The position numbers and the translations under genes were made by a program. This document shows, piece by piece, positions 7,818 to 37,600 of a DNA stretch of 64,000 nt. Each line of letters opens with the position of its first letter. Position 1 is the first letter of the stretch. The stretch lies in contig MU053645.1 in the NCBI GenBank assembly GCA_013239625.1, forward strand, positions 62,001 through 126,000, written 5' to 3'. The notes under the pieces are model-generated. The model had not been told where the DNA came from. It was given only the letters and a program-made list of their open reading frames with translations, and did not search any database. The stretch is from Lama guanicoe (lineage: Eukaryota).

Positions 7818-10128
<2,311 letters not shown>

Positions 10129-10649: not shown

Positions 10650-11164
10650 TTCTAGCTGAACACACAGCTTTATAATTCTTCAGCTGTAAATGCTTCCCGG
10701 TCCACCCAAAGCAGGTGGACAAAGATAATAGGGTCTGTATCTCCTGACCCCAGACCACAACACAATGACCTTGTTAATAGCATGAGCTTAGAAGGCAGAG
10801 ATTCAGAATGGCTGCTAGGTTCACATATTGGACTGGATAATTATCACGGATTTCTTAAGAGTCAGGTAGCTGGCTAGGACCTCAGGTAGAAATGTGAATA
10901 GTCTCTCCCATGATTTCTTCATAGTGGTTTAACACATGAAATTCTTTTCCCAAAGCAGAAGTTATTACTTCTAATTATAAAACATTATGGCTACAGAACA
11001 GGGAGCAAAATGAATTGTATCTCAAATTCTCAACCTAAAATGATTTTAAAATGAAATGTGGTTTTTAAATTTAAAAATGCAGAGAAAGAAGCAAAATAAA
11101 TTATATCCCAAGTTCTCAATATGTTTTTAATTTGAAATATTTTGTGAAATGGGAAGAGCCTTAC

Positions 11165-11229
11165 CTGATGTAGAGTCTAGCCCTGTGATCCGGTTGTCTT
11201 GATTCTCACTCCAGAAGGAGACAGGCTGC
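11165..11229 (-). other. PWWP3B: Putative 65-nt 5'UTR exon ('exon B', cassette copy 1)
   Basis: Minus strand acceptor ccctgtctccttttag|G and donor CAG|gtaagg. Confidence 0.65.
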
Positions 11230-11669
11230 CTAAAAGGAGACAGGGAATCAAATGAATTTCATGGACAAGGCATACAGAAATTTTTCTACTAAAACTTTAG
11301 AAGGAATGTCATTCTGAAACACAGGAATGAAATGAAAACTCATCTGTGATGTAGATAAGATGTTTATTGTCCTCCTTATTCTTATTATTTTAAATGATCT
11401 CTGTGTAATACAGTTATGCTATTTGGTCCATGCTTAAATCATCTTTCTCAGGAAAAGTGTGCAATAAGGTCAAGAGAGCAGGGAAGTAACAACTGCCTTG
11501 TGTCTACTATGAGCCAGACTATAGATTCTGTTTGAATCTTCAAATCAATCGCCATGTGAATTTTCCCTCCTTTACACATCTACTTTTTCAACAGAAATTT
11601 AATCACACTCTACATGCTGTCTCACAGTCCGCTAATACAAAATACGTTTCACTGCTTTCTTGGTCTACT

Positions 11670-11830
11670 TCATAAAAATGGTTGCCTGGAGAAAGTTTAG
11701 GAAAGCGCCATCTTGTGACTAGAACCAGAACTGCAGCCTCCTCAGAAGCTATTTGCAAAGCCTCAATCACTAATATATTTTTCTTCTGAGAGAAGGGTGG
11801 GGACTACATTTAGCCAGTCAGGAGCCTTCC
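11670..11830 (-). promoter_or_regulatory. YY1 site (CAAGATGGCG) plus GGACTACA motif, copy 1
   Basis: gcgccatcttg at 11705-11715 and gggactaca at ~11800; YY1 core retained in copies 2 and 3. Confidence 0.5.
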
Positions 11831-12629
11831 CAGGCTTCTAGAACTTTCTAAGTTCAAGGGTTTTGTGTAGAATGATAAGAGGATCTTAATGTCTTCAACT
11901 ACAATGTTTCTGGTTATAAAATATCCAGAGCTTATTAAAAATTGAAAAGATGCAGAAAGATACATGGTAAACTAAGTACAACTATATACAAATAATCACT
12001 ATGAATATTTTCTATCTTTCCAAAATCTTTTTACATGTATAGACAAATGAATATCATTTCAAAACAACATCAGATCTCAATTAAGAGCATAGTTTGAACA
12101 TCATCCTACATAAGTATTTTCCACATGATTTATGAATTACTTTAAATGAGGTTTTCCTCACATTTGAAACAAAATATCGCAATATTTTCCCTGATGATGT
12201 AAGATAAGTAAATTAATAAGTATATATTCATAGTTCAAAAAATAGACAGCAGTAAAGCTAGTCCTGTTTCTCCAACTACACAAATAATCTTGTTAAAAGT
12301 GTGGCAGATATGTTTTCCCAGATTTGGCTGCATTAATTATAGTAGCATATATATGTCCTGCTAACACATATATTTATTTTTAAGTGAGATTATATGACCA
12401 ATGCTATGCTGCAATTTACTTTTTTTCACTTTACTTCGCAGACATTTCAAATCACTACATGTAGGGGTTCATGTGTTTATTTTCCAGATACATAGTATTG
12501 CACTGTATGGATGCACTATGCTATACAATATTGTTAAAGCTGCTAATAGAAATAAACCAGATCCTCTCTCTGTCTCATTCTTAAACTTAAAAGACAGAGA
12601 AAAATGGTTATTGCTGCCCACAGCCATAC

Positions 12630-12800
12630 CTGTGGTCTTACAGGACGAGTTGGAAGGAGGACAAACATAGGGCCGTAGCCATAGCACAGCAACGAGGCTA
12701 CGCTGTTGATCAGGTCCAGGAAAATTTCCACTATCGGCAAAAGACTGGGAGCAGGGGTATGTCTGCATGTGTGTGTGTGTCTATGAATGCTTATGTGTTT
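12630..12800 (-). other. Putative 5'UTR 'exon C', copy 1 (donor intact, homologous acceptor mutated)
   Basis: CAG|gtatgg donor at 12629-12624; highly similar to 26945-27113. Confidence 0.4.
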
Positions 12801-13483
12801 GAAACAAATTGGGTATATTGTTTTAGCTTTGTTTTCTTTTACGATTATAAAATTAATCATGGGGAAATCTCCTCTAAAGATACTGACACAGGCTAAGAAA
12901 TAATATTAAAATAGTTACTTGACCATCCAGAAATGCTGACTAACATGGGAGTTTATTTTTTCCCATATTTTTTCTAATTAAACACATATACATGCATATA
13001 TATGTGCAAGTGTCTTCACTCAAATACATATATGTTCCCCTTTCCATGCTCATGTACAGGTGACACAGACACAGTCTTTCTATATGTAAATCAATGTATA
13101 GAAGTATTTCCCCCCATGCTGTCATATATTTTTATCCATCATTTTCTGTGCAAATTAATAAATGCTTAAAAATTCAAACAGTAATAGAATATCTAGCAAT
13201 ATAAACATGGAATGCCAAGTCAATAAATTAGTATGAACAGCCATGCTTCACTGAAGTCTTAATATAGAGGCTGTAATCTGATCACCCCTTCTCCCACTGT
13301 GGACTTTTAAAGCATTGGGAGTTACAAAAATTCCAAAGGATTAATTCTTTCAAAATGCCAGCAGTTCTCTCAAAACTACACACTCTTCGCAGCCCTCTAA
13401 GACCACTGTCCCTACTTTTCACATCTTTACTCTAGGGTCCTGAGAAATCCCTATAAAATAACTAGATTTAAGACAGCCATTAC

Positions 13484-13600
13484 CTTGAAGCTTCTTGTCA
13501 GCTGCAGCCTGGTGAAATGCAGCTCCTCCCCCAAGACTGGCCTGGCACAGCTCACTCCCAAGCTTCTCAGAGGATGCTCCGCCCCCTCCCTGTGATGGAG
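13484..13600 (-). promoter_or_regulatory. PWWP3B: Promoter and first exon, copy 1 (GC box at 13577-13590, donor AAG|gtaatg)
   Basis: GGGAGGGGGCGGAG Sp/KLF box about 95 nt upstream of a splice donor on the minus strand; local GC enrichment; present three times. Confidence 0.65.
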
Positions 13601-14869
13601 AAGACAAACGGCCCTTCCCTGAATTAGAGGAGGAAGAACTGCTAAGTTAAGCTGCTGAAGTGTTGAAGGGTAAAAATGTTCCTTTTAAAAGAACTTTAAA
13701 GTGAACTGGCAACAAGTGTCTGTTTAGTTTCCCTTAGGGTGATGCGTTATTGAAAAAAGAGGTAGCAAATCACTTTATTTTTTAAAAATCTAAACTATTT
13801 TATATTTTTTCCTTGCCTTCTCTGCACCTTAACTCGGCAGGTAAATTTAAAACCCAGCTGGTCATGCTTCATGAAAATAGTTCACTAAGGATCTTGATTG
13901 GGACTGCACTACAACTGTACATTATTTTAGGGAGAATGACTTCTCTATAATTTTTTTCCTGTTTCCAGGACACAGTATGTCTCTGGTATGTCTTGCCTTT
14001 TATTCAGTTCCTCTGTTAAATGCTTCAGAAAGTTCCAGAGACTTCTTTATCAACATGGATATTTCTGACCAGAGGCTTAAAATAAGTGGTTCGGCAAGAA
14101 AGTACCCATTTCTTATGCCCTCATCAATAACCGGCAATTCTTTCTTATATTTTATTGGTATTTTTCACTCACACAATTCAATGTGGGAAAAATTAATTTT
14201 AAAAAATACACATATTTGTATGTCTGAAATATATTTTGCCCATTTTGTTCATTAAAATTCTTTTGCGTTAAATTAAAATTCAGATTTCTGATTTAACTTA
14301 GCCAGTTTTAAACATCGCTAGTGATAGTTTTGGGAATGAAGATATTTAGGAATGAAATGTTTTATTTGGCCACTATATTATATAATATGTAAGATATATA
14401 TAAAGTATATTTATATATAAATATTTAAACATAAATTCTATTTTATATATAAATTTATTTATAAAATAAAAAAATGTTGTTTTTTATTATAGCAGAAAAA
14501 GGAAACTGATACATTGGCCAAAGAGAATGACTATCTGCTCCTGATTAATTCAGAACCTGATTCAACATCTAGAAATACACATACTTAACAAATGTTCGTT
14601 GAACTGACAGCATCCAATGTGTAATTCAGTTTAAAATCCAAAACGTGAGATGCAAAGAGACATGAAGATACTATGGGTTGTGAAGACCTCAGTGCTAGGG
14701 TCCTCGCAAACCTAGGATGGTGTTGGGCATCCCTCCACCAAAGCAGCCAAAGCCTTAGTTTTCAGTGGCTGGTGAGTATCTCCAGTAACTTCTACTTTAT
14801 TCTTTTTTTGGGGGGAAGATTAGAAAACACCTTTATTAGTCTTGATTAGGTACTATGGAAACAATTTTA

Positions 14870-16128
14870 TATTAGCACTCAAAATACATATTCTTTTTTT
14901 GTTACAGGTGTACAATATGATTCACAACTTTTAAAGGTTATACTCCATTTATAGTTATTATAAAATATTGGCTCTATTTCCCATGTTATACAGTATATCC
15001 TTGTAGCTTATTTTGTAACTGGTAGTTTGTACCTCTTAATCCCCTATCCCTTTTTGCTCCTCCCCCTTCCTTCTCCCCACTGGTAACCACTAATTTGTTC
15101 TCTATATCCATGTGTCTCCTTTTTGTTACATTCACTAGTTTGTTGTATTTTTTAGATTCCACATATAACTGATATCATACAGTATTTGTCTTTCTCTGAC
15201 TTTTTTAACTAGGCATAATGCCCTCCAACTTCATCCATGTTGCTGCAAATGGCGACATTTCATTAATTTCATTCTTTTTTATAACTGACTACTATTCCAT
15301 TGCATACACACACACATTTTTTTAAATGAAACATAGTCAGTTTACAATTTTGTGTCAATTTCTGATGTATAGCATAATAGTTCAGTCATACATATACATA
15401 TATTTGTTTTCATGTTTTTTCATTATGTTACTACAAGATATTGAATATAGTTTCCTGTGCTATACAGTATAAACTTACTGTTTATCTATTTTATATACTT
15501 AGTATCTGCAAATCTTAAACTCTCAATTTGTCCTTCCCCACCCCCCTCCCCCTCCCCCTTGGTAACTGTAGTTTGTTTTCTATATCTGTGAGTCTCCTTC
15601 TGTTTTGTAAATAAGTTCATTTGTCTTTTTTTAGATTCCACATGTAAGTGGTATCATATGATATTTTTCGTTCTCTTTCTGGGTTACTTTACTTAGAATG
15701 ACAATCTCCAGGTCCATCCATGTTGCTGCAAATGGCATTATTTCATTCTTTTTTGTGGCTGAGTAGTATTCCATTGTACAAATATACCACAATTTCTTTA
15801 TCCAGTCATCTGTTGATGGACACTTAGGTTGTTTCCATGTCTTAGTGACTATAAATAGTGCAGCTATGAACACTGGGGTGCATATATCTTTTTGAATTAA
15901 AATTCCCTCTGGATATATGCCCAGGAGTGGGATTGCTCGATCATATGCTAAGTCCAGTTTTAGTTTTTTAAGAAACCTCCATACTGTCCCCCATAGTGGT
16001 TGCACCAATTTACATTCCCACCAACAGTGTACAAGGGTTCCCTTTTCTCCACATCTTCACCAACATTTGTTATTTGTGCTCTTTTTGATGATAGCCATTC
16101 TCACAGGTGTGAGGTGATAGCTCATTGT
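14870..16128 (-). mobile_element. Two adjacent L1 3' ends (older ~14870-15315, younger ~15316-16128)
   Basis: ORF 15631-16008 is the L1 ORF2 C-terminus ([15 protein letters not shown]...FAATWMDLE). Confidence 0.92.
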
Positions 16129-16399
16129 GATAATTTTGGGAATGAAGATATTTGGAACTGAAGTGTTTTATTTGGCCTTTGTATTATATAATTGGCAATA
16201 CATAAAATATATAGATTTATATATATTTTATTTTTAAATATTTTAATTTGTACATAAATTTATTTATATATAAAATAAACCATATATACACATTTTAAAC
16301 TCCACCTTTATGCAAGCACTAATATTGGAAGAATACATACTACTAAATTTATGAATGCAATCTCTAAGCTAGTACATTATTGAGGGCTCTAACAATTAA

Positions 16400-16801
16400 A
16401 GTATGTAATGTTTTCTGCTAAAAACAACCCCTAAATCTCAGGGGCTCAGCCCCAAAAGAGTTTATAATGCTGATGTCAAAATTCAATGGAGGTCATCAAG
16501 TGGCCAGAAAGAGAGAGGATTCTAAGCAGTCATTAAGAGATTCAAACGTCTTCCATCCTACAGCTCTACCATCTTCTTTGGCCTGAAAGTCCTCCAAAGT
16601 CTTTGCAACTGACTAGCAATTTAATGAAAAAGGTCACTGGAGAATCCTGTAGAAAGTTTTAGGAGCCAGGTCTGGCAAGCTTCACTGCTGGTCACAGTTA
16701 ACTCACTAAACTGAGGCTGGGGGGCTGGGGAAGGTAGTCTTCCCGTGACCCAGGAGAAAAATGAAACAGAATCTGGGGAACACAGCATTCTCTCTGCCAC
16801 A
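16400..16801. mobile_element. Old MaLR (MLT1-type) LTR
   Basis: aacaacccctaaatctcagggg start and ctctctgccaca end resemble MLT1 LTRs. Confidence 0.55.
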
Positions 16802-19049: not shown

Positions 19050-22000
19050 TTTCATTTTGACTTAGGATATAAAAAGCCATAGGAGAATGTCACCCATAAC
19101 TTAACAATGATAAAAATCTAGATAATCAACAAAACCATAACATTCCTTGAGCTCATCACAGAACTGAGGTAAACTGAATTCCGAAGGGCAATGAGCCCCT
19201 CTGGCAGAGCATGGAGACAGAAGTCTGCTGTCATGCAGGCAGGTGAAGAGAAATCAGCTGAACTTGTAATGAATTCTTAAATTCCTACACTCTTAATGGG
19301 CTAGTGTGTCAACAGTTTGGAATATGTGGCACCCAAGACACTTACACACTCACTGCCAAATTATTTTTCACAGTCCTTTACCAGAAGCACACAAACATGA
19401 CTGGGGACAACGCAGAAAACTAAAATGAGCCCACGCCAGTGGTTCAGGTATGCAGGAGGCAATCAGCTGTTGCTGGCGGACAGACATGTAGCCCCACACG
19501 CTTATCCAACCAAACCCTTCTATCATGGCAAGCAAAAGCCTTAAGCCACTAGGGGAGAAGCACAAACCATCTCCTCTTGGACCCAGGTGAAAATCCCTCA
19601 CTTCTGGTTGAGGGGCAGAAGCAATAGCTATCTTCCTGGGGAGGGGAGACAGGAAACCCTCCCGTCCCCAAGACAAAGACACGAAACCCTTAAGCCAAGG
19701 ATCCTACATGAATAAAAAGCAGTAGTGAGCTACTCCTAAGCAAGGGGCAAGAATGTATTTCCCACAAAAGAGCAACACCAGATACAAATCAGAGTTTAGC
19801 TGCCATTTGGAGGGGAAAGGATGCTGAGAAAGCACAGCCCTCAAGGTCTAGGTACACAGGGCCTCTGTAAGGCTGAGGCTGTACAGAACAACAGGAAACA
19901 CTCCCTGCCTCACCATAAGCCTAGCACCTAATAATAACAGGAGCCCACTGCTGCAAAACAGGCAAGAGTGTGAAGAGAGACACCCTCCCACCTTCAACCA
20001 GTGGCACAGGTGTGAAGGGACTGCTGAAAATTTAGGCTGGAGAAAGATCATTGAGAAAAATCCTCTGGCGCTCAGGCTGCACTCTAAGCAAAATACATAT
20101 GTTATACAAGCCAGATGGTAATGAAGAGAGAAAAGGATGACACAATCTCCAACTTATTTTATGATACCAGCATTAACCTCACACTGGGAAGAAACAGAAC
20201 AAATAAAGAAAACTAAAGATCAATGTGTCTCATAAACAAAGACATGGATCTAATGATACAGATACAGAAATTATATAGAATTACATAGAAAATTATACAG
20301 AAGAATTTTAATGGTATAGAAAAGGATAATATATTATGATCAAATGGTGTTTATCCTGGAAATAGAGGGATGGTTATACATTTGCAAATCAATCAACATA
20401 ATTCACCATATCAACAGACTGAATAAAGAGGAAAAATATCATCTCAATTGATGCAAAAAAAGCATGTGACTTAATTCCACAGACATTCATGATAAAAATG
20501 TTGAGCAAACTAGCAATTAAAGGGATCTCCCTCAAACTGATCAAGAGCATTTACAAAAAAAAACCTAGTGTAAACATCATAATTAATGATGAAACACAGA
20601 ATGTTTTTCCTCTAAAATCAGGAACAAGGCAAGGATGTCTGCTTTCACTACTTCTGTTCAACATTATGTTAGAGACCCTAGCCAATAAATAATATCTGAA
20701 AAACAAAGGGGATACAAATTGGAATGGAAGAAATGAAACTGTTTAACTGCATGCAACATGATGATCTATGCAGAAAATCCTACTGAATTTACCAAAAGAA
20801 AAAAAAAAGCTACTAGATCTAATACGTAAGTTTATTATTATCACCAGATGTAAGATCAATATAATTTATTTTGATACAATAAAAATTGGAAGTTAAAGTT
20901 TAAGAAAGCACCATTTATAATATCATCAACCCCCAGAAAACACTAAATTAGAATAAACCTAGCAAATATGTGCATGATTTGTATGCTGAAAACTTCAACA
21001 CATTGATGAGAGAAATTAAAGAAGACCTGAATAAATGGAGAAATATATTATGTTCATTGAGTGAAAGATGAACTAGTTTTAGGATGTAACTTCTCTCCAA
21101 ACATATCTATAGATTTGATGGAATTTCTATCAAAATTCCAGTAGGATTTCTGTAGAAATTGAGAAGGTATTTCTAAAATGCATATGGAAAAGCAAAGGAA
21201 CTAGAATAGCCAGAACAATTTTGAGAAGGAAATACAAAGTTGCAAGAGTCACACTACCTCATTTCAAGACTACCGTAATGAAAACACTGTATTATTGACA
21301 TAGGATAGACATATAGATAAATAAAACATGAACAAATCAGCATATACAGTCTACAGATTTCTGACAATGGTAATTAAATGGAGAAATGATGGCCTCTTCA
21401 ACAAATAGTGCTGGAAAAATTTGACATCATATGCAAAATATTTACCTTGAACCCATAGATAAGATCATATATAAAAATTAACTCAAAATGAATTACTGAC
21501 CTAAGTGTAAAAGCAAAAATTATGAAACATGTAGAAGAAAACAAAGTAGAAAATCTTTGAGACCTTCATTTAGATAAAGATTTATTAGAATGCAAAAAGC
21601 ATGGACCATAAAACATTTGATAAAATTGACCTGAAAACTTCTGCTCTTCAAAAAATAAAGTGGAAATCCACAGAGTGGGAGAATATATTTAGAAAACACT
21701 TATCTGATAAAAACAAACAAACAACTTGTATCCAGAATATATAAAGAACTCTATAATTCAATAATAAGATTAACAACTCAATTTTGAAAATGGACAAGCA
21801 ATTTCAATAGATTCTCATCAAAAAAGATATATGAATGTCAAACAAACATATTAAAAGATAATCCATATCATTAGTAATTAAGGATATGTGAGTTAAACTA
21901 CCACTAACACCTTTATAAGAACAGCTAATATTAAAAAGAGAAAAAAAAGCCGACAGTATCAATGACTGGCAATGATGCACAGCTACAGGGCCTTATACAT

Positions 22001-22615: not shown

Positions 22616-25367
22616 ATCCAATCAGAATACAACACATATAAGAAGTTTAGATTTTACAGTGAGAGTAATGGGGCTACATACAGGAATTCTGTTTGTCCCT
22701 TGGGTCACTGATTGCCAAAGGAGGTTGTGAGTACCACAAGGTATGTGTAAAAATATCCTCTGGAATGTAGAATGAATATATTAGATATTCAATTTGTTTA
22801 GTCTAACTAGTTTTTAATAACTTTTATTACTGAATTTGCTTTAAAAATGTAGGGGGGCACCTAAGACCTGACTTTAGATGTGGTTATGTAACTCTTTGTA
22901 TAAATTCATATTTCCACTAAATATCTCTTTTGTTGAAAAGTCAGTTAACGTGGGACAAATGTCAAGAATCCAGAGGACTTCAGCATCACCTAGCTTGTGA
23001 AATGCATCCTCACTGGGAGAGCCTTTAACTGCACCAAAGCTCTCACGTGCCAGTCAGCCATATGAGGGGAAGGAAAGGAAGGAGCAGAAGCCAATGGCCT
23101 ATAATCTGGAGACAGTTCTGGTTAAGAATACGCTCCCAGTGAGAAAGTAGAAGCCAATTAACATATGAGAGACAGAGTGGTTATTGAATAAATAAATATC
23201 AACATTTTTAGTGTATAAGGTCCATATAAAAGAAACGATCCATTTAGAATACTCCCAAAGACCACGAGGGAGTCATGAGCATAGGTAAAACAAGAAATCT
23301 TAGATTCTTAATGGATATTCAAAATTTCAATGACTCCTAAGGCACAGGCACAAACAGCTGAAACTGTAAATAAAGTCAAAATCTTATTATTAATGTTCGC
23401 TGATAGAATGTCAGCCCACCTGAAGAGGAAGAATATCAGAAGAAAACTTACTAAGGATGAGCATTCCAGGTAAGAAAAGGGCAAGCCAGATAGTGAATCA
23501 CTGACAGGGCCAAAGGGACACAATACTCTCTGGTCTAATGTATATGAACACACATAATGTAGGGAAAAAAGAAAAAAAAATACCAACCAGTGACCTAGAA
23601 GTCATAAGATGAACCTGTCCTGTTTGGAGATTCTGTATTTCCTAGGTAATGCTAAAACATACACAGAGCCCACGGGAATTCAAGAGTCAGGATGATGCAA
23701 TGGGAAACATACAAAAAAAAGAAAGTGAAAGACAGAGTGATGAGGACCTCACAATGTCATCATCCCAGCACATATCAAATAAAGCTTTATTACGCTCTGA
23801 GTGTTGAAGTAGAGAGACTAAGCTGTAGTGTTCATCACAGGATTAACAAGCAAAGTGAAAGAGCTTCATTGGATCTGCCTTGGGGGATTTAAAGATAAAA
23901 GGAATCTCCTTCTCATTGTGTTCCTCACCCCCACTCCATCTCCACCCCCGCCACCCTCTAGACACCCATAGGAAAAGAAAGATCCAAGCTGGACCAAAAC
24001 TATTCCTGTCATCACTCTGAATAAAGGTACTTACCAGTTCTTTAGTGAGGAGATACGAGAGAGACTGTTAAATATATACTGTCTAAACTTCAGAGTTTCT
24101 CAGACAAGCATTATGGGAAGGTTGTTGTGTTAGAAGTTCTCAAATAGACATATTCAGACATGGGTTTGGGACCGAGTTCTAACTTCTACTAGCTCACTAA
24201 AGGGACCACTGTTACCACTGGATATCAAAATGTATTACAAGGATAAAATAATTTTTAAAAGCTCAGTAACAGTCTAAGTGTGTAGCAAGCAGATATGAAC
24301 GTAACAATGCAGGAGAAAAGAAGAAAAGATGTCCAAATGAACCACTGAAGATCTGAATGTGATGTGATTGATTGGTACATCTGAAATAGACTAGAAATCA
24401 ATCAGTGAACTCTGAATCATGTAGAAAAATCCTTAGGTCATTGATCTGCGTAGGACTGTCTGGTTAACCACAAAAACAGTGATTTTAGAGGCCTCTACTG
24501 CCTTAGGGCCACTAAGTAGTTTCCTCCTTCTGTTCTTAGATGTACCATCCTAAAAACTTGCAAGGGAGCTTGAATAAATAATTTTGAATGGGCAATGCTC
24601 ACTTAAAGAAAAGGCAAAGAGAAGAGAGAATAAACAAAGAGACTTCTTCTGTCAAAGGAGAAGGAAGGTAGCCAATAAAAATGGAGAAGACAGACAAAAA
24701 GATAAATAAATATTGGGCACCAAAGAAACATATTGTGGTTGGGGAAAATATTTAAAAGTTCAAGAAAAGAGAAGTAGTTTTATAATGCTTCAGTATGTAG
24801 GCCTTATTATAGCGATGAAACATACGGAATGAATGAGTGTGTGTGCGGTGGGAGACTGGGGAAGGGGAGTGCTGAGGAATGCATCAGGGACATCATTTCT
24901 GTTACTGGTTATTTTGGTACTTTGGGGCCTTCTGAGGTTTACTCTAGGGTAATCTTTTAACTTTTTAAAGCTTCCAGTGCTGCCTTATCTACACAAGGCA
25001 GCCAGACACAGATACTGGGGTTTGTGTCTCTTGTACTTAGACAAAAACACAATGACCTCATTAAGAGGATGAGCTTAGGAGTCACGTATCTTGAATGGCT
25101 GTCATGGCTACTTACTGGATAGGGTAGTTTTCAAGTATTTATTGAGAGTTAGGCAGTTGGCTGGAATCTGCAAGTCTTCCATACATAGACATCATCATAC
25201 TCATTTGTATAATTTCTTCATAGGAGTTTAACACATTTAATTCTTTCCTAACTAGAATCTGAGGTTTTTCGTTGAAAAAGTTATGGTCACTGAGCCAGAA
25301 TCAAAGTAAATGGCACTTCATATTCTCAGCTTAACCATATTTTAACATGAAATGGAAAGAGCCTTAC

Positions 25368-25553
25368 CCAGTGTCACGTGGATCGTGGAGAGTCTGGCTC
25401 CGTGATGTGGTTGGTTTTATTCTCACTCCAGCTGCTTTTCCAGCAGAGCCTTCTCCCTGCTCGGCACTTTTGTGGTCACGCTGCCTTTCTGGGGCTTGAC
25501 TGGTATCACATGCAGATCCCCCAGGTCGTGTGTATCTCTGATATTGACCTAAG
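25368..25553 (-). other. Putative 5'UTR 'exon B', copy 2 (long form)
   Basis: Donor GGG-gtaagg context at 25367-25362; candidate acceptor ccctgtctcctcttggacag; homologous to 11165-11229. Confidence 0.5.
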
Positions 25554-26944
25554 CTGTCCAAGAGGAGACAGGGAATCAAACCAATTAAATGGAAAAGGTG
25601 TAAAGAAACTTCACTGCCAAAACTTCAGCCGGCATGTCATTCTGACACACAGGAATGAGATGAAATCTCCCCTGTGATGTAGATGCCATGTTTATTTTCC
25701 TTCTTGTCCTTATTATTTGAAGTGCTCTCTGTGATACAGTTATGCTAGTTGGTTCATGCTAAAATCATTCCTCTCATGAAAAAGTATGATTTGGAAACAA
25801 GAAAGAATGGAAGTAACAATTGCCTTGTGTCTCTCTACAGGCCAAATCTGAGTGGCTAGATTTTTTAAGTGCTTTCTGTTGTGAATTCTCATATCAGTCC
25901 TCGTGTGGGGCTTTTTCTTCTAGACACATACAATTTTTTCACCGGAACTGCAATCACACTCTACATGCTGTCTCATAGTCTGCTAAAACAAACTACGGTT
26001 CATGGCATTGTTTGCTCACTTCATAAAAATAGTTGCCTGGAGAAAATCTGGAAAATCTGGCAAGCGCCATCTTCTGACAGGTACCAGAGCTGCATCCTGT
26101 TACTACCAGATCCTTTTTATGGGAGAAGGGTGGGAACTAACATCCCGGCAAGCCAGCAGTTTTCTCAGGCTTCTAGAATATACCATACTCAAATTTAAAG
26201 TTTTGTTATGCATCACACAAAAAATGGAATGCTAATGTCTTTATTTCTAAGGGCCTGATAAAAAAAATTGCATGCTTGCTGAGAATTGAATAGATAAGAA
26301 AGACTTAAAAAGAAAGTATAATTCTGGGAAAACATATTATTGTTTCATGAATATCTTTCAATATTTTTTGTTTACATATATACATGAATACATATAATTT
26401 CAAAACAGCTTTTTACTGTGCTCAAGCAGTTTGAAACTTTTTCCATTATCAGTATTTTCAACGTGCTTTTGTTTGAATCACTTCAACTGTAATTTTACCC
26501 CCTAATTTACATTTTACTTCAAACTTATTTGTGATATTGTTAAAAATGATTAACTATGTATTAAGAATTACTTTTAAATAGAGATAGTAAAGAGTATCTT
26601 GTCTCTCAAACTATACAAATGATACCAGGGAGCCTTATATTTTTTCTGATGTTGTTATACATATCGTATTAACACAGTCCTTTATCTTTAAATGACATAA
26701 CATGGTACTTGTTATTCTGCAATTTGCCTTTTTCACCTACTACTACTTCTCAGACATCTTTTCAAATCACTACATGCTCATACTTCCATTTGTCAGCTAT
26801 GTAACATTCAATTGTAAATGTAAGGATGCACCACATCACACAATATTTCTGAAACTGCTAATAGAAATAAACCAGATCCTCTGTCTGTCTCACTCTTGAA
26901 CTTAAAAGATAGAATAAAATGGTTATTGCTGCCCACAGCCGTAC

Positions 26945-27113
26945 CTGTGGTCTGACAGAATGAGTTACAAGGAGAACAAACATAGGGCTGTAGCCACAGC
27001 ACAGCAACCAGGCTACGCTGTTGATCAGGTCCAGGAAAATTTCCACTATCGGCAAAAGACTGGGAGCAGGGGTATGTCTGCGTGTCCGTGTGTGTCTATG
27101 AATGCTTATGCAT
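26945..27113 (-). other. Putative 5'UTR 'exon C', copy 2
   Basis: Acceptor ctcatttggtttcag| and donor CAG|gtacgg on the minus strand. Confidence 0.5.
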
Positions 27114-27769
27114 CTGAAACCAAATGAGTACAAATTTGTTTCAGCTTCATTTTGCTCTACTAATTAAAAAAAATGATCATGGAATAAAGCAATTCTAAAA
27201 ATGCTGAAACTGGTTAAAAATATACTTTGAAATCCTCAGTAATCTGAACACTACAGAGATAGTATTAACATGGGAGTCTAGTTACCTCTGGAAGGAAAAT
27301 GTACATGTTTTTTCACAAATGTTATCATTCAACAGCATATCTGAATCCCTTCCATGATCATCGTACATTTATATTTGTGTTTGTATGTGTCAAGCACTTT
27401 TTATGGTTACATTTTTCTACTAGTTATTTTTTTTTCTGTAGAATAATAAATGTTTAAATCAAAAGATAATAGATTCTGTAATGAAGACAGAAATATGGGA
27501 TGCCATGTAAGAAATTAAGACTAATAGCATGCCTTACTGAAGTCTTAATTTAGATGCTGTAATCTGATCACCCATTCCCACACTGTGGACTTCAGAAAAT
27601 ATCGGGAGAAACTAAATTTTCAGGGGATTGATTGTGTCACAGTAATAACAATTTCCGCCAAACTATATTTCATTCCCACTTCTCCCAGGCAACAATCAAT
27701 TTTTTTTCACCGTTATACCAAAGCCCGAAGAAATTCCCAGAAAAAAACTAGCTTTAAGACAGCCATTAC

Positions 27770-27890
27770 CTTGAAGCTTCTTGTCAGCTGCAGCCTCGTG
27801 AAATGCAGCTCCTCCCCCAAGACTGGCCTGGCACAGCTCACTCCCAAGCTTCTCAGAGGATGCTCCGCCCCCTCCCTGTGATGGGGAAAG
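27770..27890 (-). promoter_or_regulatory. Promoter and first exon, copy 2 (GC box 27863-27876)
   Basis: One mismatch seen versus copy 1 over ~130 bp; same donor. Confidence 0.6.
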
Positions 27891-30800
27891 CAGGGGGCCT
27901 TTCCCTCAATTAGAGGGAGGAGAATCGCCAAGTTAACTGAAATTCACTTAAAGGGGAAAAACATTCATTTTTAAAAGGATTCGAAAGAGAAATGGCAACA
28001 TGTGTCTCTTTAATTTCCATTCAAAACACAGGGGTAGGTGATATTCTGAAAAGAAATAGCATATTCCTTTATCATATAATAAAGACTCAGTTAAAAATAT
28101 CTCTTACAGATTTTTCTTGCCTTCTCTGGTAACACTTCTACAAAAGATTTTAAGACCCGGTAGATCTAGGTCCACTAAAAAGACCCACTTTGTCCTTGTT
28201 TGTGACTGCAGCAAATTAATGCATTATTTTGTGGAGAATTAAATCTCTACAGTTTTAATTCCTCTCACCATGGGACATGATAGGTTTCTCTTTTACTCAG
28301 TTTGCTTCATCCTTCAGAAAGTTTCACTTTTTTTCAAGTAAAGTCATTTTTAAACCTAAAACATCAGCCAAAATCCTTAATGAAGAGAGATATAAGAGAT
28401 ATATATCTGAATATATTAAAATTGAAAAAAAAACTATTCCTGGTGAAAACACTATAAAGCAAAGTTGAAAACAGAAGAATAAACTTGACAAACTGTTTTC
28501 AATTCAAAAAGTATCTCTACTCTAAAGTAGCTCTTACAAATTGACAAGAAAAAATAGTGAAGGTAAAAAAAAAAAGAGAGTAAGGGACATAAACAATTCA
28601 CAGTGTTCTGAGGGAGTAATTGTTAACCACTCCAAATATTTACTTCCCAAGCTCATGCAGTGCAACTACAGGTATCTCTGTCCTTATACAGTTGCAAACC
28701 TCCAGGCTGTTTGGTAAGATTGTTTAAATTGGATGTTTTAAAGCCAGCTTGACTCTGACAATAATCAGTGCCCTGAAACTTACCTTCACCTTGTACGAAA
28801 GCTGACATTTAGGCTTCTATCTGCAGCTTCATTTATTTTACATCAATTTGTTCAATTTGTTCAGTGAGGAAAGAGAGGTGCTATTCATGGGGGCTCCTCA
28901 AAACCCAAACATTAGAAATAAAAATTAAAACTAAACAATCCACAAAAGAGACTCACCTTCCCTAACTAAGAGATGCAAATATGAACAGCAATGAATTTCA
29001 CTTTTCTACCTAATTTGTTGTGTAATGAAGTGCCCCCCCCCCAAATGATACAACAGACAGTTGGCAAGAGAGTGAGGAAATGGGCACTCTTGCTCACGTG
29101 CAAGGTCACAAAGCTGGGAAGGGGGCAAAACAAAATCAAAGCCAAGGTCTTATCTGATTCCCAAATAGAAAGACGTGTTCTCTCTCCACCAGTACTCAGT
29201 GCCTTCTGGGCTTCGAATCCTGTTTCTTGGGCATAACCAAGGATGATGTCATCCACCTTCAGATTGTGGGGGAATTAGTGAATGTAACCTCTGAGTGAGT
29301 GTTGTTTAATCTTACGTCCCTGCTGGTGGACCCACCAGTGAACTACAACAGCCTTCAATTATTACCATACTTAGCTATGATGTCTCCATCTTTTACATAC
29401 AACTACATTCTTACACCAATTACAACATATGCTTCTGTACTATGCTTTTGCACTGACCGTATACTTTCACTTGGCCATTGAGTAGTTAAGACATGTCTGT
29501 TTTGTGTTGCAGGTCCTGGTAGTAACTTTCCTTTCAGATATGGTTATTCCTGGACAGGGACTGAAAACCACCTGTTACGCAGAGAAATGCCTATTCCACT
29601 TTATCCTCATTTACTGTTGGTAGCTCCCCGTTCTTGTGTTTTGTTATTTGCAACTTCAAATTCAATATCCTCTTTCATTGAGCTTTTTTTTTGTTCACAA
29701 AATATTCAAGAAATTAACATTTAAATTTAGATTTAAATTGCCTTTAATCTAGGGGGATTGTTTCCCAGGAAGGGGTAAAACCTACATACTGCTAATGGAT
29801 CACTTTGAGGGTTAGTTCTCTTAAGATAATGTTACATGTTTTAAAAAGAAAAACGTTACAAAATGCAGGTAAAGTTGGTAAGGCCCTCACAGATCCATCC
29901 ATCATCACAGTGAACAAGTAAACACGACTCCTGTCTCCTGCCACCTCTGACTAATTCAGGTTAGGGAAACAGAGCTGCAGTATGACACAGCTCTTCCTGT
30001 GATTAACAAACAAAGGGAAAGAAAACTGCATCAGGGGCTCTAAAGAAAGAAGGGTCAAGCTGGATCAAAATTATTCCGCTAACCAATCTGAGTAAAGGAT
30101 ATCAAGGGTTCTCTGGTGAGGAAATATGGATTTCTGTTGGCAGAATCCAATGTCTAGCCTTCAGGAGTGTGCCACAGAGGCATTATGATACAGTTACATT
30201 TTTTGAAGTGTTCAAACAGGCAGGCAGGCAGACAGTTGTAGGTTTGAGACCTTTATTAGCTCAGTGGAGAGAACATTTTGAAATCCCTGACAACTATGCT
30301 AACTTGTCATGTCCCCTACTTGATAGCACAGGTAAGAAACATACATGACTCACATGCATCTCTGACATTAACCTAGGTTGTCTAAATATTAAATATTAAA
30401 CCACATTTGAAGGTACAATAATTTAAAAAAAAAGATTTTGGTACCTGCCTAAGTGTGTAGTGAGAAACAGAGGAGACAGGAAGGATGGGAAAAGAGGGGA
30501 AACAAGTCCTAATTTAATCACAGAGAAACTGAATTTGCACATGTTCAGTTAGTGCACCTGGATATAGACAAGAAATCAATCAATAGATACGCAATGTGCT
30601 GGAAAACTCCCTGGGACACTGTGTGGTTCTAGCTGCCTGGTTTTCTAGAAAAGCAGTGTATTTGAAGGGCCCTTAACTCTGTTGTGTTAGGGCTAGTAAA
30701 TGGCTCTTACCTGCTGTAGCCTCTTCTTATCCTTCTGAGACTATACAAAGTAGCTTGAATAAAGTGTTTTCAATAGGTGACAGCTGGATTAGATTAAAAC

Positions 30801-31677
30801 ATGGCAAAAAAGAAGAGGGAACAGATAAGTTTACTCTGCTAAGCAGAAAGAACACGGACAATGAAACTGGAGACAAGATACAAATTCAGAAGAATAAGTA
30901 GTGCATTTCAGACAGAGGAGGTCAGAGACCTGGACATCTTTCGGGAGAAAGGAACAAAAACTGAGAAGAATTATGATAACACAAACCCAATATCCCACCT
31001 TTACTATTTCTATTTTGTACTATAAATAGGGAATGTGTGTGGGAGGGCCTTTGAAAATGGCAGAGACGTTATTTGTGTTCCTAGATAATTTGGGCCTTTT
31101 AAATCTCACTGGGTTGTCATGACGGAAGGCTGGCTTTAGTGTTTCCTATGCTGTTAGTGCTGTTAGTGTCTCTCCAAAGCAACCAAAGAAATCATGGACA
31201 CAGACAGCGAGGTTCAGCATCAACAACCTCATTCAAGAGAGGACACAGATGTCTACTTAAGGAAGGCTGTGAGACCTTAAGCAGGTCTTAAGAAATCCTT
31301 GTAACTAATCTATCTAGTATGTGGTGATGACAACCTAGCATAGTTGTCAAGGACTGGAGAGTCAGGCCATGGGCTGGAACCTCTGGTAAATACCTGAATA
31401 GTCTCTTACACTATTTCTTCACAGTGATTTTAACACATGAGATATTATTTCCTCAAAACCAGAAGCTATGGCTTTTAATTACAAACCATTATGCCTGCAG
31501 AACACAGAGCAAAATGAATTGTATCTCAAATTCCGAACCTAACATGACTTTGATATGAAAGATGGCTTTTAATTTAAAATGCTATATGGCTGCAGAGCAG
31601 GAAGCAAAACAAATTATACCCCAAGTTTTCAACATGTGTTTAATGTGAAATATTTCATGAAATGGGAAGAGCCTTAC

Positions 31678-31863
31678 CCAGTGTCACGTGGATCGTGGAG
31701 AGCCTGGCCCTGTGATGTGGTTGGTTTTATTCTCACTGCAGCTGCTTTTCCAGCAGAGCCTTCTCCCTGCTCGGCACTTTTGTGGTCACGCTGCCTTTCT
31801 GGGGCTTGACTGGTATCACATGCAGATCCCCCAGGTCGTGTGTATCTCTGATATTGACCTAAG
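31678..31863 (-). other. Putative 5'UTR 'exon B', copy 3
   Basis: Nearly identical to 25368-25553 at offset 6310. Confidence 0.5.
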
Positions 31864-34497
31864 CTGTCCAAGAGGAGACAGGGAATCAAACCAATTAAAT
31901 GGAAAAGGTGTAAAGAAACTTCACTGCCAAAACTTCAGCCGGCATGTCATTCTGACACACAGGAATGAGATGAAATCTCCCCTGTGATGTAGATGCCATG
32001 TTTATTTTCCTTCTTGTCCTTATTATTTGAAGTGCTCTCTGTGATACAGTTATGCTAGTTGGTTCATGCTAAAATCATTCCTCTCATGAAAAAGTATGAT
32101 TTGGAAACAAGAAAGAATGGAAGTAACAATTGCCTTGTGTCTCTCTACAGGCCAAATCTGAGTGGCTAGATTTTTTAAGTGCTTTCTGTTGTGAATTCTC
32201 ACATCAGTCCTCGTGCTTTTTTATATTTTATATATGTGTAATATTTCACCGGAACTGCAATCACACTCTACATATTGTCTCATAATCTGTTAACAGAAAA
32301 TACATTTCATTGCTTTGTTTGTCCACTTAATAAAAATGGTTGCCTGGAAGAAAATTTTGGATACCTGGCAAGCGCCATCTTGTGACTAGAACCAGAACTG
32401 CAGACACTCAGGTCCTTGGTGAGAAAGGGTGGGAACTACAGCCCTCCAGACAGTAGCCTTCTCAGGCTTGTACATTTTTTCATTTTCAACTGAAGAGTTG
32501 TGTGTGTGTTGCAGAAAAATGGGATCATATTTCCCCATTTTAATGCTTGCTCTTATAATATCTCTCATGCATACTGTATATCTTCATTTTTTGATTATTT
32601 CAAGAAAGAAAGCAAATCCCCAGAATAATGGTCAAAATGTAATGGATTGTTTTATACATTTACAGATTTTTTAATACATATTTATAAATGTGCATTTTTT
32701 TGAAAGCAGACCTTTATCCCCACCAAGGATAAATTTTAACATCTTTCCACATCAATAAATATTTTCTGCGTCATCTTTTTATGAATTACTTTTACAAGAT
32801 TATTCTGTATTTCTAAAGCTTTATCTCATCTTTTCATAATGAAAATTACTGAAGCTTACTCTCTTCAAAATAAGATTTTTTAAATGGAGAAATGTAATAT
32901 ATAAAAGGTTGAACTGTTCTGTCTCCAATTACACTCATATGCCCAAATAATAAAGTAGCATGTATATTTCCAAATTTTTCTTGTGTACATTGTACTAATA
33001 TTACAGGCCATTCGGCAATTTGCTTATTTTTAGAGTATACTTCCCACATCCTTTCTTATTTTTGCATTTAGTTCACTGCATTAGCTTATTCTTTTTACAG
33101 CTGCATAGTATTCAAAATTATGCATGTAAGAGCCTACATGACTATTTCACAATATTTTAAACATTTCTTGAATTCTTTCTCGAGATTATATAAAAATACA
33201 AATAAATATCTTTGGCTTGAACCAAAGTCTGGATAACAGTCTAAACATTTGAACTGCAAGAAGAGCATAAGCAACCAGATAACCAGCCTTCTCAGATCCA
33301 CAGAAAAATCCACTTTTAGCTAAAAACAATGGAGTGTGTGTGGGTATCTATGTCTGTAACAAAATGGATTTTTCTCTTTCAGCTCCACTATGTGTTTCAA
33401 AAAAACCATAAAGGTACATAAAACCTAAAGAAGAAAATACACAAGCTTCATATCCCAACCCCTGAATTGTTCACTGCTTATTTTTGAGTCTAATCCCCTT
33501 GATTTTTCCCTAATCATATATATGAAATTTCATCATATATATTTAATTTAAAATACTGTATTCATATATATGTATATATATGCCCTTTCCTCACTCTGAT
33601 GTGTATATATTAGAATACACAATTTGAAATTACATTTATTCATCAACATATTTGAATATCTTTCCATGTTTCTATATGTTTACACATTTTTTTGTGCAGG
33701 CAGTTTTTTTCCCCCATGTTTTAAAAATTCTTACCTCAGTTATTTTTTATGGTGACACAGGTTCTACATGCTAAGTGAAATGTGGGAAAAGAAGTGGAAA
33801 ATTTCCTCTTTTTTCCTTAGACATCATTTATTACTACATATATTGTTGTGTTCTATTATATCAATATGTTTATTATTCTTCAGTTTACGGTCTTTCAGAT
33901 ATTTTTCATATTACAGTACAAATAGGAATACATCATTCTCTTAACAGCCAGATAACCAAACTTCTTATTGCGAGAAGTACTTAAACTTGCACAGTGATAT
34001 ATATTACTTCAGATTATTGCTATACAAACTCCACCCAGACAGTAAGATTTGTTAGAAACCCCATCAACAACCAAAGAAATATAAAAAGTCAACACTCCCA
34101 ACTAATAACTTCATTTTTCATTTGGGATTATCATAATCTCTTTTTTTTTCAAAATAAGGAACATTAATTTCTCAAGTTTTGTTTCATCATTTTTCTGTTA
34201 CCACTGCTCTCTGACTGAAACATAAAATGCCCTATTCAACAGTTAGCTTTTGCAACCTCATGAGGTATTTTTTCCGCAGGTGTAATCTGATCACCTCCCC
34301 CACTTTTAAAGAGTGGACTTTTAAAATAGCTGGAAGGAATACAAAATCCAGATATTAATTCCCTCACAGAAACAACGACTCTCACAAAACGACACTCCTC
34401 TCCCACCACTCCAAAGCAACAGTCCCTTCTTTTCTCACCTTTACTGCCAAGTCTCCAGAAATCTCGAAAAATAACTAGCTTTTACGACAGCCATTAC

Positions 34498-34635
34498 CTC
34501 CAAGCTTCTTCTCCTCTCCCTTCGGCGGAGGCCTCCGAAGTCTGTCTGTAATGCGGCTCCTCCCCCAAGACTGGCCAGGGACGGCTCACTTCCAAGCTTC
34601 TAGAGGATGCTCCGCCCCCTCCCTGTGATGGGGAA
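34498..34635 (-). promoter_or_regulatory. Promoter and first exon, copy 3 (GC box 34610-34623), the most CpG-rich copy
   Basis: Same GC box and GAG|gtaatg donor; different, CpG-containing exon body. Confidence 0.6.
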
Positions 34636-37600
34636 AGCAGGAGGTCCTTCCCTCGTTTAGAGGGAGGAGGATCACCAAGTTAAACCGAAATACAGTTAAA
34701 GGAAAGAAATGCTCATTTTTAAAGAACTTTAACGTGTAATGGAAACATATGTCTGTTCAATTTTCTTTCAAACCCCTAGGGTGGGTGATTTCCTGAAAAA
34801 AGAAAAGAAAAGGAGATAGCAAGTCCCATTTTCGTGTAATAAAGCTGCAGTTAAAATGTTCCTTACATATTTTTTCAGGCCTTCTCTTATTCTTTATCTC
34901 TGGTAATTAAGACCTGTTAGTCAGGCTTTACTAAAAAAGCATGCGAAGTGTCTTGATTGGGATTGTAGTGAATCAATATTTTATTTTATGGAGAATTCGT
35001 TCTTTACAATTTTGAATCTGAACCTGGAACACAATGTGTATCTTCTTTCATTCAGGTCTCTTAATCCTTCCTTCCTTAGGTCATTTCTAAGGAAAAATTC
35101 TCAAACAAGATCTGACTATATTGAAATTGAAAAAAAATGTATCAATAATAAAACCACAATAAGCCAAAGTCAAAAATCAACCACAAACTTAGAAATGTTT
35201 TTCAATGCATATGATTGGATAAACAAAAATATCCCTAAACTAGTTATATTTCATTCAGAAAGAAAGGAATAACGTACCAGAGAATTAGGCAAATGGCACT
35301 AGCAGACATTTCATAATATCCTTTTCTACTCCTGATATTTACTTACCTTTAAAGAAAGTTCAAGTAGGGCAACTTGAAGGCTCTCTGTGCTTCTTCTAGA
35401 CTGGACAGGCAGCTAAGCAGATGGATAGTTTGCTTAAATCTGGGTTTCTGTTACTCCCATTTCATTCTCATAATGAGCAATATCCTGCAATTCATTTTCC
35501 CCTCTTAATAAAGGTGACACATGTTTTTATCTGCTATTCCATTTATTTTATTGCAATTTGTTCATTATCTTCAAGATATGACAATTGTAACCTTTTATGT
35601 ACCCACTAAGAAACCTCAAAATGCGTAATACTGCAAAAATGTATAAAAATACATTACTGAGCAGGCAAGAGAATTTTGTAGAGCTCTAACAGAGTGGGAG
35701 AAAATTCCGACCAGCTCTTCCTGAGGCCCTTTTAGCATAGAAAGCATTTTGATCTCTCCCAGATTAAACACTACGTGCTTGGTCTTGTAGTATCTGATAT
35801 GATTTCTGATAGCACATTCTCTCAAGGTCGCTGATAAAATTTCAAAAACCTAGGCTTCTCAATACTGCAACTCTATAAAAACAGCCTTCTGTTCTTCTGT
35901 TCATGAGAATTTCTGCAAAATTGTGGAATCAGTCCTGTTCTTTATCAAGAAACATAATATTAGAAACATTGTTCATTGAAACATAGCAACATTAAGAACA
36001 GAGAACTGATAAACTTTGTTCTTTAAAATTGGAAGACCGTGAGAAACTTTGTATTGAGAAAGAAAAGATTCTATTCTGAGGGTTGCTCCTTTATTGTCAT
36101 TGATGTTTTAGTTTTCTTTGGTATTAAAAAATACTTTAAAATGAAACCAGTACAACAAAGAAAAAATACATACCAAACTATAAAATAGCCAATATGTCAG
36201 GTGTTGGTGAGAAAGAGAAGCAACTTGAATGTTCATACACTGCTGGAATGTAAATTGGAACTAATATTTTGGGAAATGCTTGATATTATCCCCTGAAACT
36301 GAACACTATAGAGGCTGAGATAGAACATTTAGGGCTTTCAGTAACAGAGTTACATGTCTAAATTGGTAGAGAAATGGTCCCCACAGAAAGCTATGCATAT
36401 TCAAGAGCACATATGAGACTATCTAATGGGATATATGAGGTATGTAATCAGAATTCATTTTTTATTTTAATTTATTTCAAAAGCTTTATTTATAAATAAA
36501 ATAATAGTACCATACAAACATATTTGTATGGTATTATTGTATTTTTATATACTTTATAAAATATTGAATTATGGGAGGTAGCAACAAATTTGTTACAGTG
36601 GTGGTAAAAAAGCTATGTAGAGATCTCTGCTTTATAGGACTCACAGTGCACATAGTCTTCCCATTTGTCTTCTCTCTGATTTGTGTGGTTTGGGATTATA
36701 ATCTCATAAAAAGACTAATCTGAACTTCCTAGATGGCCTATATATTGATCTCACTGCTCAGAGAAACTACTGTTACCTTCTATTAAATACTTAAAATAGT
36801 AATGAGAAATCAAAATGTAGTAAGCCAAGTTTTTACCAGAGGATTGATTCTTGCCAACTTCAGACAATGCTACAAAATATGTTGGCCTACTGCTATTTTA
36901 TTTGGACTATATAAAGGTTTTTACTATACTATTATAAAGCCAAAAATTTAATGCCAACAACGATTGGTTTTTTTCTTTAATGTCAACCTAAATTTAATTT
37001 CTAACTTCCCTATTTAACTTTGAGACCTTGAAAATAATGAGTGAATTTTTTTGATACCTGGAAAATTCCTAAGAAAATCAGAATCCATGAACACGGACCC
37101 TCAAACATACCAAGTTGCAATGCAATAATTTTTGAGAGTCTTACATATGAAAGTATTTATTTTCATAAAGTTCAAATTAATATAATAAAATCAATATGGA
37201 ATATGCATCAGCTTATAAGATGTTGAGAAGTTAATTATATTTTGAAGCTTAAGTCTAAACTTTTTATAATATGTATTTATTTGGGTGTATGTTTAAGTAT
37301 ATACATATAATGATACATTAATTTGAATAAGATCAGCTTAGGGATAATAGAAAGGAGAAGATTAAATAATTAAGATAAAAAATGATCTTAGAATATATAG
37401 TCTGCCCTTACAGTGATATCATATAGACTTATTTTTTTTAATATACTCTATCTAGATCCCAGAAAGGTGCTTCACTTATATGTATATTTTCAATTCAAAA
37501 AAGTTAACCTATATCCTTTTACACTGCCTTGTACCATGTTCATAGGTGCCTTATTTCAGGAAGAGCTAAATTTTTTACTTATCATGATGCTTCTTTCTGC

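What the first reader, a model, noticed from the sequence alone, without database searches (positions are those of the whole stretch)
10890..34700. Mosaic relationships among cassettes: the closest partner switches block by block
Seen: the promoter/exon-1 block is copy1=copy2 (one mismatch, 13468-13598 vs 27754-27884), and exon C is copy1~copy2 (12540-12810 vs 26854-27125). Exon B is copy2=copy3. The intron downstream of exon B (10895-11165 vs 31395-31678) and the YY1 core gcgccatcttgtgactagaaccagaactgcag are copy1~copy3. Sequence upstream of the GC box is copy2~copy3. No single duplication tree explains this. Inference: repeated conversion focused on regulatory modules, i.e. concerted evolution of promoters.
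Basis: partly seen in the sequence, partly recalled or inferred. Interest (0 to 1): 0.7.

Follow-up and report, generated by a model that had tools for sequence, protein, structure and literature searches.

The report
Gene conversion reshuffles PWWP3B leader exons
In front of the X-linked gene PWWP3B lie three old repeats of likely non-coding exons that have probably been copied onto one another in patches (gene conversion), likely separately in different mammals, so each patch now matches a different neighbour; this is a new form of a known process, not a shown promoter system.

Summary
The mosaic is real. The window is the 5' region of camelid PWWP3B (one coding exon). Three direct-repeat cassettes, about 50-70% identical overall, plus a decayed fourth, carry sharply bounded near-identical patches: copy2=copy3 554/560 (two thirds intronic), copy1=copy2 131/132, and copy1~copy2 237/256. 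Translated ORFs from other mammals gave the ortholog test. The 'exon-1' patch differs at 1 of 36 codons between camelid copies 1 and 2, but at 7 of 36 in sheep. Camelid copy 1 is nearer sheep copy 2 than sheep copy 1. In another, unnamed lineage the two copies are again identical. Selection alone is refuted for the strong patches, and lineage-specific conversion is supported. The 'promoter' label is weak: in other mammals' spliced records these blocks are internal exons of one long, alternatively spliced 5' leader. The YY1 block is not significant alone, and the block upstream of the GC box is ancient and conserved. Likely mechanism: selection keeps short exon islands similar enough to recombine, and conversion resets them and spills into introns. 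Closest known case: BEX/WEX/GASP 5'-UTR conversion. No camelid reads were examined.

The parts
7818..9902 (-). PWWP3B (MUM1L1) coding sequence, one uninterrupted exon
   Evidence: 99% to dromedary PWWP3B
9903..10128 (-). 5' part of the coding exon; 9983-10128 is the copy-1 paralog of 'exon A', without the donor that copy 3 has
   Evidence: acceptor scan and profile hit E 3.8e-11; spliced ORFs P0132, P0142, P0148
10895..11152 (.). intron block copy1~copy3 (83%), holding a ~92-bp internal duplication absent from copy 2
11165..11229 (-). copy-1 exon B (short form), AG...GT
   Evidence: P0142, P0148, P0153 splice into its homolog
11672..11736 (.). conserved intronic element with YY1-like motif (motif name recalled); copy1~copy3 likeness not significant alone
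12540..12795 (-). converted patch copy1~copy2 (237/256) holding exon C (12630-12730) and both splice sites
13467..13598 (-). converted patch copy1=copy2 (131/132) in copy-1 'exon 1' (donor 13483, upstream acceptor 13618), GC box near 13579
23400..24700 (-). distal part of copy 2, with an exon-A acceptor paralog near 24600
25346..25905 (-). converted patch copy2=copy3 (554/560): exon B long form (25368-25553) plus upstream intron
26855..27110 (-). copy-2 partner of the exon C patch (exon 26945-27045)
27753..27945 (-). copy-2 'exon 1' (donor 27769; acceptors 27875 and 27904) and the upstream block that resembles copy 3
29182..29229 (-). spacer stretch whose homolog is an exon between copy-3 exon A and copy-2 'exon 1' in sheep-cluster records
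   Evidence: P0124, P0138
30711..30783 (-). copy-3 exon A, with acceptor and strong donor
   Evidence: P0128, P0138, P0140
31395..31655 (.). copy-3 partner of the intron block
31656..32215 (-). copy-3 partner of the 560-bp patch (exon B 31678-31863)
32330..32403 (.). copy-3 YY1-like element
34481..34693 (-). copy-3 'exon 1' with a 20-bp insertion; richest in CpG of the three, so the best promoter candidate (inferred)
   Evidence: P0128, P0141
41580..44300 (-). decayed fourth cassette: exon-A acceptor 42968; homologs of 42891-42971 and 43277-43345 are exons in sheep gene models; no exon B, C or 'exon 1' homology found

Best explanation
The three cassettes are old tandem repeats of likely non-coding exons that probably splice in series into one long 5' leader of PWWP3B, and their patchwork likeness likely comes from repeated interlocus gene conversion confined to short islands that purifying selection has likely kept similar. 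Steps: (1) An array of at least four units, about 50-70% identical, is in the sequence (shown); related ORFs in sheep, cat, fox and field mouse date the cassette to before those lineages split (inferred). (2) The intronless PWWP3B reading frame starts about 80 bases past the end of unit homology in the last unit's exon A (shown); it arrived as a retrocopy (inferred). (3) Selection slowed change in leader exons and their splice signals (supported at codon level: camelid vs sheep copy-2 'exon 1' 34/36). (4) Only such islands stay above the roughly 80% identity that conversion mostly needs (PMC3924818), so a break there would be repaired from the neighbouring cassette, resetting identity and running into introns until an indel or divergence stops it (inferred). 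(5) Which pair last exchanged differs by island and by lineage, which gives the mosaic; in camelids 'exon 1' likely went from copy 2 to copy 1.
For: Sharp patches against a diverged background: 554/560, 131/132, 237/256; block heterogeneity chi-square 337, 10 df; run tests. 338/338 intronic identity where copy 1 differs at about 23%. 'Exon 1', 36 codons read in a non-coding frame: camelid copy1/copy2 differ at 1; adjacent sheep models XDA90929.1 and XDA90928.1 at 7; camelid copy 1 differs from sheep copy 2 at 3 and from sheep copy 1 at 6. Both camelid copies read Q at codon 17, and 0 of 15 other records do. P0123 (copy-1 flank) and P0152 (copy-2 flank) are identical at 36/36, differ at 7/21 flank codons, and differ from camelids at 7-8. 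Exon B: camelid copy2/copy3 differ at 0 of 29 codons where sheep-cluster P0143 matches 17 of 31, and they share KPTT where 5 of 5 listed occurrences in other records have no P. Exon C: camelid copies share NS where P0124 and P0126 have KC. Cassette order is the same in sheep models. The left end of the 560-bp patch sits at a ~95-bp indel.
Against: Ortholog data are amino-acid readings of non-coding DNA, so silent changes are invisible, and most records name no species. No camelid reads were examined, so splicing in camelids and the assembly of the 463-bp identical core are unchecked. No camelid donor was found at two exon ends used in sheep models (near 42890 and 29160). No ortholog covers the intron or YY1 blocks. 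GC bias is unclear: 42 vs 31 in the long patch (p 0.24), 4 vs 7 in 'exon 1', 43 vs 21 in exon C where copy 3 has decayed. Sheep shows no recent 'exon 1' conversion, so the process is sporadic.
Confidence: 0.74

Rival explanations
1. Conversion is itself favoured or targeted at regulatory modules: selection fixes events that keep duplicated promoters or leader exons alike, or breaks form preferentially in open promoter chromatin.
For: All three strong patches overlap a splice-defined exon (random placement P 0.023; exonic bases P 9e-5). The same exon appears homogenised in camelids and in a second lineage. Theory allows selection for similarity (PMC3924837, passages).
Against: The placement test is partly circular and cannot separate targeting from the need for homology. 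Sheep copies differ at 7/36 codons, so identity is not required. The longest patch is 67% intronic. No transcription start is shown.
Confidence: 0.12
2. Unequal crossing-over that expanded and then contracted the array left chimeric cassettes.
For: Direct tandem orientation, a decayed fourth copy and a fragment at 39079-39368 show past copy turnover. Two successive crossovers give the same product as one conversion.
Against: Patches are 130-560 bp with diverged flanks on both sides. Cassette order matches sheep models.
Confidence: 0.06
3. The 463-bp identical core is an assembly error (copy-3 reads filled into copy 2); the other patches are real.
For: Perfect identity; it starts near an indel; not checked with reads.
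Against: Copy-specific differences lie at both ends (78/83 on the left; a separate 30-bp match on the right). Camelid-specific states in the left part are shared by both copies. 14 of 24 listed runs, from 7 studies, hold 89-94% of the region's sampled words; this shows the region exists but cannot test the core.
Confidence: 0.06
4. One duplication tree with purifying selection alone.
For: Conservation is real: copy-2 'exon 1' 34/36 and its upstream block 20/20 codons against other species' records. It does account for the upstream block and probably the YY1 core.
Against: 338/338 intronic identity needs a rate about 47-fold below background, while copy 1 differs at 23% of those sites. Paralogs are closer than orthologs and share lineage-specific states.
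Confidence: 0.02

Closest known systems
BGW element: 5'-UTR gene conversion among BEX, WEX (TCEAL) and GASP genes at Xq22 (Winter and Ponting 2005, PMC1274310, Results section read whole; PMC7586669, section 8 read)
   Same: Eutherian X; genes with one coding exon and non-coding 5' exons; paralogous UTR exons closer than orthologs; lineage-specific events, some very recent.
   Different: There the copies head separate genes. Here they lie in series in front of one reading frame and appear chained in one leader. PWWP3B is not in that paper's gene table, and homology to the BGW motif was not testable.
Interlocus gene conversion between tandem duplicates (PMC3924818 and PMC3924837, passages read)
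   Same: Patch lengths of 130-560 bp fit reported tract lengths of 50 to several hundred bp; conversion mainly above 80% identity.
   Different: Background identity here is only about 50-70%, so exchange appears to survive only in islands.
Retrogenes that gain upstream non-coding exons and alternative isoforms (Carelli et al. 2016, PMC4772013, passages read; author name recalled; supplements not available)
   Same: Single-exon copy of a spliced parent (PWWP3A; its intron structure recalled) with upstream untranslated exons.
   Different: The upstream exons come from a repeated array that still exchanges sequence. MUM1 is not named in that paper's main text; its supplements could list it.
Variable-first-exon clusters UGT1, GCNT2, PCDH (PMC1885805, search listing and start of abstract only)
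   Same: Tandem paralogous 5' exons upstream of shared downstream sequence.
   Different: Those variable exons are coding and used one at a time (recalled). These show no coding signal and are joined in series.

Membership tests
Interlocus gene conversion / concerted evolution | paralogs more alike than orthologs within the patch | tested here: met
   'exon 1' 1/36 vs 6/36 and 2/36; exon B 0/29 vs 14/31, at codon level
Interlocus gene conversion / concerted evolution | lineage-specific derived states shared by paralogs | tested here: met
   Q at codon 17 in both camelid copies and 0 of 15 other records; KPTT in exon B; NS in exon C
Interlocus gene conversion / concerted evolution | bounded tracts with diverged flanks, beyond chance | tested here: met
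Interlocus gene conversion / concerted evolution | copy order kept across species (not re-duplication) | tested here: inconclusive
   same order in sheep gene models and spliced ORFs; no genomic DNA of other species seen
Interlocus gene conversion / concerted evolution | G+C excess in converted sequence | tested here: inconclusive
Interlocus gene conversion / concerted evolution | variants shared between copies within a population | not tested
   no reads examined
BGW element | lies in the 5' UTR of a BEX, WEX, GASP gene or HNRNPH2 | tested here: not met
   the gene is PWWP3B; not in the gene table
BGW element | about 57-60-bp motif with an E-box | not testable with these tools
   the motif is given in a figure that is not held
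Variable-first-exon cluster (UGT1/PCDH type) | variable exons code for protein | tested here: not met
   exon C differences are 5-7 replacement vs 1-3 silent codons in all three frames; no Pfam hit for the 4 cassette-region frames scanned; reading frames differ among records
Variable-first-exon cluster (UGT1/PCDH type) | each cassette used alone and spliced to constant exons | tested here: inconclusive
   records join cassettes in series; this does not exclude separate starts
Promoter | transcription starts at each GC box | not testable with these tools
   motif only; CpG 2, 4 and 9 in about 240 bp of copies 1, 2 and 3
PWWP3B (MUM1L1) | PWP3A-B_N, MUM1-like PWWP and PWP3A-B_C domains in one exon; best hits PWWP3B | tested here: met

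The most novel reading that the evidence does not exclude
PWWP3B, a candidate chromatin reader of meiotic prophase, landed as a retrocopy in the last unit of an older array of non-coding exon cassettes and took over the whole array as a combinatorial 5' leader. Exon choice and upstream ORFs set its translation by tissue, and for about 100 million years selection has favoured conversion of the same exon, separately in several lineages, to keep the leader modules interchangeable.
Probability: 0.2. Interest if true: 0.65.

Novelty: new variant of a known kind. Interest (0 to 1): 0.42.

Why it matters
It extends 5'-UTR gene conversion on the eutherian X from separate genes to repeated modules inside one gene's leader. 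The same short exon seems to have been overwritten in camelids and in a second lineage but not in sheep. That makes the locus a compact test of an open question: is conversion of non-coding modules selected, or does it only persist where selection keeps enough similarity? It also warns that high identity between such non-coding copies can reflect recent copying rather than extreme constraint.

Tried and rejected
No whole genome is held for this window. Rfam: 0 matches. Earlier-finding look-ups by relatives and by sequence found nothing; the words PWWP3B and MUM1L1 met no finding. The metagenome motif scan gave 1 locus, L001, 62% GC with no homology to the window; rejected as chance. A protein search with an exon C frame gave 0 hits among 2 candidates. 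Coding role of the cassettes rejected. No PWWP remnant in copies 2-4, and no distal cassette sequence downstream of the reading frame, so 'whole-gene triplication with later loss' has no support, and the proposed insertion point has no far flank to confirm it. None of 120 PWWP3-family proteins carried upstream exons matching the window. The 0.94 ceiling in DNA runs is ambiguous because 449 of 9771 words are duplicated. An ACTACA-like site near 11800 does not fit the M4 consensus given in PMC5006282 (abstract start only) and is not claimed. The amino-acid difference count printed was out of register and was discarded; the tblastn identity was used.

Full report
Setting. The window holds one long reading frame, 7818-9902 on the minus strand, with the three PWWP3A/B Pfam domains and 99% identity to dromedary PWWP3B. 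It is the camelid PWWP3B (MUM1L1) locus; X linkage is recalled and fits the listed papers and earlier findings. Upstream lie three direct repeats: copy 1 about 9980-14040, copy 2 about 23400-28860, copy 3 about 29600-35570. A decayed fourth lies at 41580-44300 and a fragment at 39079-39368. Background identity is 0.64-0.74 in local pairwise alignments of the four copies and 0.49-0.70 in the three-way alignment. With a recalled rate of 2.2e-9 per site per year this is about 80-130 million years.

The observation. An unguided scan for high-identity segments found three strong patches: copy2/copy3 554/560, copy1/copy2 237/256 around exon C, and copy1/copy2 131/132. Informative sites cluster far beyond shuffles: 584 adjacent agreements against a maximum of 479 in 10,000. 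After the strong patches were removed, the intron block stayed significant (42 of 64 sites, 0 of 5000 shuffles), the block upstream of the GC box was modest (17 of 25, 78 of 5000), and the YY1 core was not. A further weak copy1~copy2 excess at 13154-13298 appeared (19 of 5000). The intron block also holds a ~92-bp internal duplication shared by copies 1 and 3; copy 2's single unit is 54-62% like either half. The longest patch is 33% exonic, the exon C patch 39% and the 'exon 1' patch 87%. Neutral-clock ages are about 2, 17 and 2 million years; they are rough, and too young where sites are constrained.

Ortholog test. Three sequences give one unrooted tree, so orthologs were needed. A search with one non-coding frame of copy-2 'exon 1' returned 15 predicted ORFs, and a profile search returned 24. 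With cluster members these are 40 records. Named ones are from Ovis, Prionailurus, Vulpes and Apodemus; the rest are unnamed Logan, ENA or JGI records. I tabulated 15 of the 40 that align without gaps over the 36-codon core; gapped, rodent-like, copy-3 and some redundant records were left out. Camelid copies 1 and 2 differ at 1 codon; the adjacent sheep models differ at 7. Camelid copy 1 is 3 codons from sheep copy 2 and 6 from sheep copy 1, and camelid copy 2 is 2 from sheep copy 2. Both camelid copies read Q at codon 17 (others: 10 L, 4 P, 1 R). At codon 7, 5 of 6 copy-1-type records read F, but camelid copy 1 reads S like camelid and sheep copy 2, which points to copy 2 as donor. At codon 28, the single camelid mismatch, 5 of 6 copy-1-type records read Q and 9 of 9 copy-2-type read E, so this is an old copy-specific site and the recent tract is probably only 13512-13598. 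Typing of the cat and fox records rests partly on the same exon; the sheep-type copy-1 records are typed independently by their splice into the coding exon. P0123 and P0152 have copy-1 and copy-2 flanks and identical cores with their own states, which suggests a second, independent event in an unnamed lineage; the two records need not be one species. Exon B and exon C show the same pattern on fewer codons. The upstream block behaves differently: P0154 matches camelid copy 2 at 20 of 20 codons, so its likeness to copy 3 is old and conserved.

What the blocks are. Splice consensus predicted exons B, C and '1' (site frequencies recalled). Ten Logan records (P0124, P0125, P0126, P0132, P0139, P0143, P0148, P0153, P0156, P0157) and several gene models join exons at junctions that fit these, where genomic records read on into the intron. 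I infer that they come from spliced RNA. The joins seen are: fourth-copy exons to copy 3 (gene models only), copy-3 'exon 1' to exon A, exon A to copy-2 'exon 1', then exon C, exon B, copy-1 'exon 1', copy-1 exon B and the PWWP3B coding exon, with skipping. So 'exon 1' of copies 1 and 2 is at least sometimes an internal exon. The coding exon's acceptor (10128) is the copy-1 paralog of exon A: a profile built from copies 2-4 alone hits 9983-10218 (E 3.8e-11), and the ATG follows about 80 bases later. Predicted camelid leaders hold 1-2 short upstream ORFs that end before the main frame. No camelid reads were examined, so exon use in camelids is inferred from other mammals.

Mechanism. Conversion mainly needs more than 80% identity, and tracts run from 50 to several hundred bases (PMC3924818, passages). 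In two of the three strong patches the third copy is also raised, to 77% and 85%, as expected if these are islands kept similar by selection or earlier exchange. I therefore favour a feedback: selection on leader exons and splice signals preserves islands, conversion resets them and spills into introns, and indels stop it. Whether conversion is itself favoured cannot be told from these data; sheep tolerates diverged copies. Function of the leader is untested. One preprint names MUM1L1/PWWP3B among candidate H3K36me3 readers in meiotic prophase (10.64898/2026.03.26.714455, two passages; its supplements were not seen). Knockout macrophages showed no antiviral phenotype (PMC12045991, two passages).

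Known and new. [quoted passage not shown] This locus works like that system but is not a member: it is a different gene, and the copies lie within one leader. I found no paper on the PWWP3B leader array in these searches: either gene name (118 papers, 40 listed), MUM1L1 with retrogene (1), names with gene conversion (4), conversion with alternative promoters or first exons (11), and X-linked UTR conversion terms (0). Subscription papers are mostly outside the library. Verdict: a real mosaic, largely explained by ordinary gene conversion plus selection, in an unusual intragenic setting; a new variant of a known kind, interest 0.42.

Noticed in passing
window 9983-10128: The PWWP3B coding exon's acceptor and first ~145 bases are the copy-1 paralog of exon A, without the donor seen in copy 3; this suggests where the retrocopy inserted.
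   Followed up: partly
window 41580-44300 and 39079-39368: Decayed fourth cassette and a further fragment; they share a stretch that looks like an old MIR repeat (identification recalled, not tested) with copies 2 and 3.
   Followed up: partly
window 28783 and 35346: The two best-scoring minus-strand donor sites in 9900-45000 lie just upstream of copies 2 and 3; possible further leader exons.
   Followed up: no
window 11165-11229: Camelid copy-1 exon B lacks 14 bases present in copies 2 and 3 and, by translation, in sheep copy 1.
   Followed up: partly
window 5173-5640: Fragment with a CENP-B N-terminal domain, probably a Tigger-type DNA transposon remnant (recalled).
   Followed up: partly
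window 59626-59952: Weak reverse-transcriptase match below Pfam's cut-off; probably an old endogenous retroelement fragment.
   Followed up: partly
window 14900-16130, 20100-22400, 44940-55600, 60100-61000: Many LINE-1-like fragments; two clusters widen the spacer between copies 1 and 2.
   Followed up: no
P0140 (sheep gene model KAG5194219.1): Its acidic N-terminal 116 residues have no match in the window; the model seems to fuse a more distant gene to the leader exons.
   Followed up: no
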